From assembly GCA_001938485.1 (NCBI GenBank), contig MQRK01241337.1, positions 26,904-81,322 of the forward strand: a stretch of 54,419 nt of DNA, given 5' to 3'. The DNA is from Girardia tigrina. Lineage: Eukaryota. The translations under genes and the position numbers were made by a program. The notes below the pieces were generated by a model. That model saw only the letters and a list, made by a program, of their open reading frames with translations. It did no database searches and was not told the origin of the DNA. Shown here in pieces: positions 38,560 through 39,355 of the stretch (its first letter is position 1; each line of letters opens with the position of its first letter).

Positions 38560-39176
38560 TTACTCAACGAGAGAGATAAACTCCTTCAATGTACGATAGA
38601 AGATTGCTTTAAGGAGTTTGCCGAACAAAAGGAGCTAAATAGACATCTCAAGCGGGATCACACGGAATCCACACTAAGCATCCCGCTTCAGCTCCCAGAA
38701 GATGAAAAACCGTTCAAATGTACCAAATGCAGCAAAGGTTACAAAACGAAAGGATGGTTCACTAGGCATCTGCGTAAAGATCATCGAATAGATNNNNNNN
38801 NNNNNNNNNNNNNNNNNNNNNNNNNNNNNNNNNNNNNNNNNNNNNNNNNNNNNNNNNNNNNNNNNNNNNNNNNNNNNNNNNNNNNNNNNNNNNNNNNNNN
38901 NNNNNNNNNNNNNNNNNNNNNNNNACTATTTCAACGGTGGTGGAGCAAACGACTTATCCCGAAGATACACATTTGACTTTTAGGATCGCAGATCCAAATG
39001 CGAGGGGAAAGCTCAAATGTCCCTTTCGTGGCTGTACCAAGTCAACCAATACAGCCAAAGGGATGCTCAATCATGGTACCACAATTCATGATTAGTCGTT
39101 TGCAACAGGGAAGCCTAAGAAATTTCGGAGACTGAAGCACTCCGTCCCCGTAGGAGGCCTATCGGGGGGCAGCTAG
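38560..39176 (+). pseudogene. C-terminal ORF fragment with three C2H2 zinc fingers (5'-truncated retroelement ORF, spans the gap)
   Basis: CTIEDC..RHLKRDH and EKPFKCTKC..RHLRKDH before the gap; CPFRGC..NHGTTIH after it; internal TAG at 39093, then SFATGKPKK..GGS* ending at 39176. Not in the ORF track. Confidence 0.8.
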
Positions 39177-39355
39177 CACTTTTTAGTTTGGGTGGACCCT
39201 CTAAAGAGCCTAGTGGCTCAATACCATTCGAAAGAGATGGGAGGCCCACAATGAAGAGAAAGGGTCTTTTAAGGTGGCTAGTCGGATATACTTCCACGAA
39301 TTCCCCCTGGGAAACTAGATTAGGTGAAACTTTGTCTCTAGGCCGAAATGTCCGA
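39164..39355 (+). ncRNA. HDV-like self-cleaving ribozyme (copy B) with a large structured J1/2 insertion
   Basis: P1 GGGGGG/CCCCCT; P2 TCGGATAT/ATGTCCGA; P3 ACT/ATT with one mismatch; L3 TCCACGA; P1.1 CC/GG; P4 CTAGA..TCTAG; J4/2 CCGAA; J1/2 closed by CTAGCACTTT/AAGGTGGCTAG. Confidence 0.75.

What the first reader, a model, noticed from the sequence alone, without database searches (positions are those of the whole stretch)
39164..39355. HDV-like ribozyme B with covariation relative to A and a ~110 nt multibranched J1/2 domain
P1 is entirely replaced (GGGGGG/CCCCCU versus GGAUGU/AUAUCU). P2 shows a compensatory change (CGGA../..UCCG versus CAGA../..UCUG), while L3, GGGAAACUAG and J4/2 are conserved. 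This pattern indicates selection on RNA structure. J1/2 folds into a closing stem CUAGCACUUU/AAGGUGGCUAG, a GACCCU/AGGGUC helix, a GAGCC-UAGU-GGCUC hairpin and a GAAA-capped hairpin. The P3 mismatch may have inactivated this copy.
Basis: seen in the sequence. Interest (0 to 1): 0.75.

Follow-up and report, generated by a model that had tools for sequence, protein, structure and literature searches.

The report
Decayed ribozyme in nested retrotransposon insertions

Summary
The HDV-like core is real (39260-39354) and belongs to a genome-wide family heading short non-autonomous retroelements. The family fold is compact: a 7-bp P1 starting at the element's first base, and a 15-33-nt J1/2. B's own P1 5' strand is 39260-39266 (4/7 pairs), P3 has a mismatch, and B has no close relative, so it looks decayed. 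The claimed P1 strand (GGGGGG) and '110-nt J1/2' are the last codons and 3'UTR of a younger RTE-type LINE fragment (38516-39249) flanked by a perfect 10-bp target duplication. A second sample appears to carry B without this LINE (inferred from contig coordinates). A's claimed P1 strand is also flanking DNA. P2 covariation is real in the family (A-U 48, G-C 23 of 75) but inherited, and is G·U in the second sample. Both borrowed P1s do pair 7/7, which I cannot fully dismiss. The by-product is more interesting: insertion sites of the short elements share a split GTG-N10-TAC signature, and 154 of 1100 LINE ends abut one site in a Penelope-like endonuclease gene. The upstream target survives each insertion, so new elements stack 5' of old ones, which explains this locus.

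The parts
38250..38505 (+). Left flank: decayed Penelope-like remnant; holds the target signature GTG (38490-92) N10 TAC (38503-05)
   Evidence: 71-73% identity to the best 5 of 14 other copies; signature position; 'Penelope' label rests on a recalled motif and a weak Pfam GIY-YIG hit
38506..38515 (+). 5' target-site duplication of the LINE insert (AATGAAGAGA)
   Evidence: identical to 39250-59
38516..38541 (-). Inverted 5' piece of the LINE (twin-priming-type inversion; mechanism name recalled)
   Evidence: reverse complement found exactly in L018, directly upstream of the piece that resumes at 38558
38558..39176 (+). 5'-truncated end of the LINE ORF: three C2H2-like fingers, interrupted by a run of N; premature stop at 39093-95; natural stop 39174-76. 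Bases 39164-69 are Gly-Gly codons
   Evidence: Pfam zf-C2H2; frame SFATG...GGLSGGS*; 39094 differs from 44 of 47 aligned copies; long copies carry APE and RT
39177..39249 (+). LINE 3'UTR = most of the claimed J1/2; hairpins 39206-19 and 39224-40; ends in CAC
   Evidence: 97-99% identical in 32 of 40 hits that stop there; 1100 exact copies of its last 21 nt; motif shared with SINE-like ends
39250..39259 (+). Target duplication between LINE and element B
39260..39354 (+). Ribozyme B, compact and decayed: own P1 39260-66/39303-09 (4/7), P2 6/6, P3 2/3, L3 39293-99, P1.1 39294-95/39310-11, P4 base 39315-19/39337-41, J4/2 39342-48 with putative catalytic C at 39343
   Evidence: catalytic C assigned by analogy (recalled HDV numbering)
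39355..39513 (+). Body and 3' end of non-autonomous element B (ends GAGG..CAC)
   Evidence: no other match in the genome (1 of 1 candidates); junction
39514..39523 (+). 3' target duplication of B (ATTGAAGGGA; 8/10 to 39250-59)
39524..39790 (+). Right flank: rest of the Penelope-like GIY-YIG remnant
   Evidence: 77-79% identity to the best 5 of 22 copies; translation
21568..21968 (+). Element A: damaged 5' end, ribozyme to 21662, shared 3' motif 21912-68; lies at the same kind of Penelope-like site

Best explanation
B is an old, decayed copy of a short non-autonomous retroelement (39260-39513) headed by a compact HDV-like ribozyme. In working copies the ribozyme most likely cuts the element's RNA out of read-through transcripts just 5' of its first base (inferred from known RTE, R2 and L1Tc elements; no cleavage shown here). 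A partner RTE-type LINE (APE, RT, three C-terminal C2H2 fingers, its own 5' HDV-like ribozyme) then recognises the structured 3' end and reverse-transcribes it into GTG-N10-TAC sites, making 7-12-bp duplications (partnership inferred for A-type elements from the shared 3' motif, and for B only from its GAGG..CAC end and its site). B entered such a site in a Penelope-like GIY-YIG remnant. The target stayed intact on its 5' side, so a younger truncated LINE later entered the same site directly upstream. Their pairing with B is a by-product of adjacency.
For: Element boundaries: perfect duplication around the LINE, 8/10 around B. 32 of 40 hits share only the LINE part at 97-99%; of 15 LINE ends found by protein, 2 are followed by a ribozyme. 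Near-full LINE L125 has RT (E 2e-36), its own ribozyme and a 9-bp duplication. Family register: P1 6/6 in 41 of 75, compensatory pairs in P1, P2, P3 and P1.1. Age: LINE piece up to 98% (median 95%, 37 hits) to other copies; B core 76-91%. Second sample X2: a 476-nt contig joins B from 39248, and its first 90 bases fit the left flank 38414-38503 by coordinates and depth; no change at the P1' C-run; C39353T in P2' and a 7-nt deletion in the body (arithmetic). The LINE heptamer already pairs 6/7 with 66 of 75 family P1' strands.
Against: The borrowed P1 is perfect in both copies when read in the family's 7-bp register: B 39163-69 and A 21548-54 pair 7/7. Chance estimates are 22-26 of 135 for B and 6 of 135 for A, and only 1 of 75 family strands pairs 7/7 with the LINE heptamer. 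B's 5' part gains more on cofolding with the LINE tail than 489 of 500 shuffles and 74 of 75 family copies. B's P1' variant is unique in the assembly, so its ancestral P1 is unknown. The empty-site joint itself was not among the joints printed (27 not shown), and X1 and X2 come from one study.
Confidence: 0.86

Rival explanations
1. One reading: one extended ribozyme (39164-39355) with a replaced P1 and a selected ~110-nt multibranched J1/2.
For: All stems can be drawn; P1 is 7/7 with 39163; R2 ribozymes do have J1/2 loops of hundreds of nt and P1 strands taken from the target (PMC3774820, passages).
Against: The unit is cut by a target duplication at 39250-59; the 5' part is LINE ORF and UTR present in over a thousand places; no second copy of the combination; fold z -0.08; duplex energy matched by 201 of 2000 shuffles; apparent LINE-less allele keeps the same P1'.
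Confidence: 0.04
2. Accidental chimera: no selection, but in the LINE-bearing allele a read-through RNA can borrow the 7-bp P1 and cleave weakly at 39162/39163, as R2 ribozymes borrow P1 from 28S rRNA. A may do the same with its Penelope-like flank.
For: 7/7 pairing in both A and B; P2, P1.1, P4 base and the J4/2 C are intact in B; at Penelope-like sites the flank heptamer pairs 5-6/7 with P1' in 12 of 14 other copies.
Against: P3 middle pair is broken in B; none of the 22 other loci parsed among A's nearest hits shares A's P1' variant; neither combination has spread.
Confidence: 0.1
3. B is an intact member of a rare, distinct ribozyme-element family with a non-standard P1/P3 whose other copies are missing from the assembly.
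For: B mixes features of two subfamilies (G-C in P2, U-A in P3) and its body has no relatives; genome searches give lower bounds only.
Against: Three mismatches in its own P1, one in P3, a lost J1/2 hairpin, a diverged duplication, and allelic differences across core and body.
Confidence: 0.04

Closest known systems
HDV-like ribozymes at the 5' ends of RTE-clade LINEs (Ruminski et al. 2011; not held; seen only as cited in PMC5786205 and PMC6765202 passages)
   Same: Compact double-pseudoknot at the first base of an APE-RT LINE and of its short partners; presumed release from co-transcripts.
   Different: First P1 pair is C-G or U·G (54 of 60) and not the purine-led G·U of HDV (recalled); no activity shown here; clade assigned by recalled motifs only.
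Bipartite non-autonomous LINEs / SIDEs: R2 SIDE and R2/R1 SIDE (PMC3414825, abstract); RTE, Ingi, Vingi bipartite elements (PMC5786205, passages)
   Same: Short ORF-less elements with a 5' ribozyme, a LINE-like 3' end and target duplications.
   Different: Ribozyme and body are not simple deletion products of the LINE found here (different P1, P2, J1/2); several families; dispersed, not in rDNA.
L1TcRz / Pr77 of L1Tc, NARTc, RIME, SIDER (PMC3185411 and PMC4035085, passages)
   Same: Short ribozyme shared by long and short elements; cleavage maps to C1, a precedent for a pyrimidine first base; a broken first pair lowers activity.
   Different: Ingi clade with RNase H; L125's RT region shows no RNase H family.
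R2 ribozymes that take P1 from upstream 28S sequence (PMC3774820, passages)
   Different: In R2 the arrangement is fixed across copies; here it is seen once each for A and B.
[quoted passage not shown]
   Same: Two-part signature with about one helical turn between the parts.
   Different: Here the upstream part is GTG, the proximal part (T/G)TAC, element ends are CAC/TAC without a microsatellite tail, and one repeat site is a hot spot.

Membership tests
HDV-like ribozyme (family of A and B) | P1, P2, P3, P1.1, P4 in nested double-pseudoknot order with covariation | tested here: met
   75 copies: P2 A-U 48/G-C 23; P3 U-A 50/C-G 18; P1 top pair U-A 37/C-G 20/U·G 12; P1.1 C-G 25/U-A 3 of 30, slid controls far lower (related sequences inflate the shuffle test)
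HDV-like ribozyme (copy B) | Intact 6-7-bp P1 from its own 5' end | tested here: not met
   4/7 pairs, first pair A x G
HDV-like ribozyme (copy B) | Intact 3-bp P3 | tested here: not met
   ACU/AUU; 59 of 75 relatives are 3/3
HDV-like ribozyme (copy B) | L3, P1.1 and J4/2 cytosine | tested here: met
   UCCACGA, CC/GG, GCCGAAA
HDV-like ribozyme | Self-cleavage 5' of position 1 | not testable with these tools
   needs an in vitro assay
Rfam HDV families (RF00094, RF02682) | Score at gathering threshold | tested here: not met
   0 hits in the window; best relative L008 29-31 bits against cut-offs 44 and 50
Non-autonomous ribozyme-headed LINE partner (SIDE-like) | Ribozyme at first base, target duplication, no ORF | tested here: met
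   B duplication 8/10; exact 7-12-bp duplications in 18 of 69 full-length heads
Non-autonomous ribozyme-headed LINE partner (SIDE-like) | 3' end shared with the mobilising LINE | tested here: inconclusive
   met for A-type elements; B's 3' end shares only GAGG..CAC and has no relatives
RTE-clade LINE | Single APE-RT protein without RNase H | tested here: met
   (APE hit 22.9 bits, just under the 24.5 cut-off); closest proteins P0002 and P0003 have the same layout
RTE-clade LINE | RT phylogeny with named RTE elements | not tested
   no named references at hand; PDB hits are only L1 and R2; label rests on recalled motifs
Penelope-like element (flanks) | GIY-YIG endonuclease after an RT | tested here: inconclusive
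   Pfam GIY-YIG E 0.013, 16.2 bits against 22.6; YIGET..L..RI.EH motif recognised from memory; RT not examined

The most novel reading that the evidence does not exclude
The locus exposes a semi-site-specific APE-type (RTE-like) LINE and several ribozyme-headed parasites whose C-terminal zinc fingers and endonuclease read a split GTG-N10-TAC target. A perfect match lies in the catalytic-domain codons of a Penelope-like endonuclease, which makes that element a landing pad, stacks insertions 5' of each other and puts a near-complete spare P1 strand upstream of each ribozyme. That would be a transposon-targeting LINE outside the Tx1 and R1 clades. The signature and hot spot are measured; the zinc-finger mechanism and absence from Repbase are not.
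Probability: 0.4. Interest if true: 0.6.

Novelty: new member of a known kind. Interest (0 to 1): 0.3.

Why it matters
As stated, the finding matters little: it is one dead copy among hundreds, and a warning that long-range P1 pairings can be drawn across insertion junctions. The family offers natural HDV-like variants with a pyrimidine-led first pair and covarying P1.1, and 32 of 75 sampled copies look intact enough to assay. The split target signature matters more: one paper read here says only Tx1 and R1 among APE-type LINE clades are site-specific (PMC13295347), and APE-type elements are being developed as gene-writing tools with dispersed integration (PMC13708176), so a zinc-finger-linked preference would be directly testable.

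Tried and rejected
Rfam at gathering and E-value thresholds: no hit on B. Search for a B-like subfamily: only B itself. Search for an A-like subfamily using the flank as P1: none among parsed nearest hits. First covariance model had mis-set columns and was not used; the second was used. MAFFT misaligns the P1 5' strand across subfamilies, so P1 was counted by script; the first count misclassed about ten copies and was redone; a first motif script had a wrong spacer and found nothing; a first duplication finder recovered only 7 of 93. RNAalifold supports only the first hairpin of the shared 3' motif, not the outer stem or second hairpin. No RNA holder was listed; runs X3 and X4 laid nothing: no evidence on expression. 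APE-only protein search gave one unnamed hit. The host gene on the minus strand was not identified. Earlier-findings look-ups were empty. Twister or hammerhead readings of the 3' motif were considered from memory and dropped: Rfam gave no hit in loci that hold the motif.

Full report
Observation. The window lies in a 1.43-Gb, AT-rich animal assembly. The core from P2 to P2' is a real HDV-like motif: its exact pattern has 156 copies against 0 for the control, a sister pattern has 251, and a covariance model built from 22 other copies scores A at 93.3 bits and B at 75.6, with the next window hit at 13.5. Rfam does not recognise it. The 194-nt stretch as a whole folds no better than shuffles (z -0.08).

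The family fold is compact. In 75 distinct non-window copies the P1 5' strand, placed by homology and not by pairing, ends 21-24 nt (59 copies) or 37-39 nt (16) before P3. P1 is 6/6 in 41, P2 6/6 in 55, P3 3/3 in 59, and 32 are intact on all counts. Compensatory pairs separate subfamilies: P2 A-U 48 / G-C 23, P3 U-A 50 / C-G 18, top of P1 U-A 37 / C-G 20, P1.1 C-G 25 / U-A 3 of 30. These counts are inherited changes, so they stand for few events. The base before RGGGAY is C (36) or U (18) in 60 copies at unrelated sites, opposite a G, so P1 is probably 7 bp with a pyrimidine first base. L1TcRz, which cleaves at C1, is a precedent (PMC3185411, passages). In this register B's own P1 is 39260-66 with 4/7 pairs, and P3 has a C x U mismatch. 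The model aligns B from 39261.

The claimed P1 strand and J1/2 are another element. Of 40 scored hits for 39140-39400, 32 share only the first ~120 nt, at 97-99%. That stretch is the end of a LINE: longer copies carry an APE-like domain, RT and C2H2 fingers, GGGGGG reads Gly-Gly just before the stop at 39174-76, and 39177-39249 is the 3'UTR. The window copy is 5'-truncated, has an inverted 5' piece and a premature stop, and is flanked by an exact duplication at 38506-15 and 39250-59. Near-full copy L125 starts with its own compact HDV-like ribozyme and has a 9-bp duplication; L122 starts the same way. The first hairpin is conserved with one compensatory pair between LINE and short-element 3' ends, including the 3' end of element A at 21912-68. 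It is best read as the 3' recognition signal for reverse transcription (inference). RNAalifold did not recover the second hairpin or outer stem. Of 15 LINE ends seen in 30 loci chosen by protein, 2 are followed by a ribozyme; in the query-biased set it is 6 of 27, the window included.

Order of events. B spans 39260-39513 with a duplication that matches 8/10; its core is 76-91% identical to others and its body has no relative. The LINE piece reaches 98% (median 95%, 37 hits). In run X1 the LINE joins B. In run X2, a second sample of the same study, a 476-nt contig matches from 39248 only at its base 91; the preceding contigs end at 38443, so the next would start at 38414, and 38414+90 is the AC before the 5' duplication; depth in that bin fits. 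This points to an allele with B but no LINE. By the tally of changes, all X2 changes from C are listed and none lies in 39303-07, so the C-run predates the LINE; without the LINE its best upstream partner pairs 4/7. X2 also has C39353T, which turns the 'compensatory' P2 pair into G·U, and a 7-nt deletion in the body.

Results against this reading. In the 7-bp register the borrowed P1 is perfect for both B (39163-69) and A (21548-54). The LINE heptamer pairs 6/7 with 66 of 75 family strands anyway, but 7/7 with only 1; chance estimates for two-change variants are 22-26 of 135 (B) and 6 of 135 (A). B's first 23 nt pair with the LINE tail no better than chance as a duplex (201 of 2000 shuffles) but better as a cofolding gain (11 of 500; 1 of 75 relatives), probably because B lost its own J1/2 hairpin. 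R2 ribozymes show that borrowed P1 strands and long J1/2 loops can work (PMC3774820, passages). Neither combination has spread: B's P1' is unique and A's is absent from its parsed nearest copies. An accidental, weakly active chimera is therefore possible but unselected.

Why the elements stack here. At 16 distinct non-Penelope, non-tandem sites fixed by exact duplications (of 18 found among 69 full-length heads), 13 end in TAC and 9 have GTG at about -16 to -14, against 5.3% of 1347 window TAC sites (two of the 16 look like unflagged tandem sites and one is shifted by a base). In 50 distinct flanks, 35 have TAC and 16 have GTG-N9-11-TAC (background 0.3%), with spacer 10 in 14 of 23. I noticed the motif in these same loci before testing it, so the p-values are post hoc. 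The window's LINE site fits exactly. A Penelope-like GIY-YIG coding site is a perfect match: 154 of 1100 exact LINE ends are followed by its exact 9-mer, and 1344 exact empty sites exist; differing truncation points show independent insertions. The target stays intact 5' of each insertion, so newer elements land upstream of older ones. A role for the three zinc fingers is my inference.

Comparison and novelty. Ribozymes at the 5' ends of RTE, R2 and Ingi LINEs and of their short partners are known (PMC5786205 and PMC6765202, passages; PMC3414825, abstract; PMC4035085, passages). The family works like these; B itself fails two defining structural features. A split RTE signature (Tn-TA) is known (PMC13295347, passages). 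I saw no paper on a GTG-N10-TAC signature or a Penelope hot spot in the listings, but Repbase and most subscription papers were not searchable, Ruminski 2011 was not held, and no supplements were read. The labels RTE and Penelope rest partly on recalled motifs.

Verdict. The headline claim is an artefact of nested insertion on top of a real, ordinary kind of ribozyme: new member of a known kind, interest 0.3. The target signature is the part worth following up.

Noticed in passing
window 38490-38505 and SINE/LINE junctions in L036, L038, L128-L136, L169, L170: Split insertion signature GTG-N10-(T/G)TAC followed by a 7-12-bp duplication.
   Followed up: yes
L125:4238-4311 (-), L122:3809-3882 (-): Compact HDV-like ribozyme at the 5' end of near-full-length LINE copies, both inserted at the same Penelope-like site; P1.1 reduced to one pair in these copies.
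   Followed up: partly
L008:965-1077 (-), L028, L128:556-669 (-), L017, L109: A further HDV-like ribozyme type with a long P4; the only one with weak Rfam hits. Probably heads another element family.
   Followed up: no
window 21548-21554 with 21611-21617: Element A has a damaged 5' end, yet its P1' pairs 7/7 with the Penelope-like flank; the flank heptamer pairs 5-6/7 with P1' in most copies at this site.
   Followed up: yes
L016:2000-2059, L031:1560-1617, L036:182-241: A second LINE-tail variant with a shorter second hairpin; the shorter end pattern plus Penelope-like 9-mer has 580 exact matches against 154 for the window's variant.
   Followed up: no
window 1-112 and 54308-54419: The two ends of the window are perfect reverse complements over 112 nt; possibly an assembly feature. 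Not resolved.
   Followed up: partly
window 5043-6026, 14683-15813, 19260-19985, 26190-26597, 33475-34044 (-): Q/P/S/M-rich open frames that look like exons of one large minus-strand host gene; one motif recalls BCL9/legless from memory, but Pfam and Atlas did not name it. A and B are on the opposite strand.
   Followed up: partly
window 6513-7490, 9146-10200 (-), 53055-53896: Mariner/Tc1-like transposase fragments, recognised by eye; 135-nt inverted arms at 6292-6426 and 7646-7780.
   Followed up: no
window 13661-14049 and 49321-49709: Two near-identical (95-98%) copies of a ~390-nt repeat in inverted orientation, MITE-like.
   Followed up: no
window 4660-4720, 24038-24331, 52270-52587: Further Penelope-like remnants without a ribozyme hit.
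   Followed up: no
L120:6716-7932 (+): An Hsp90-like reading frame runs into the truncated LINE, perhaps a processed fragment next to a LINE insertion (name recalled).
   Followed up: no
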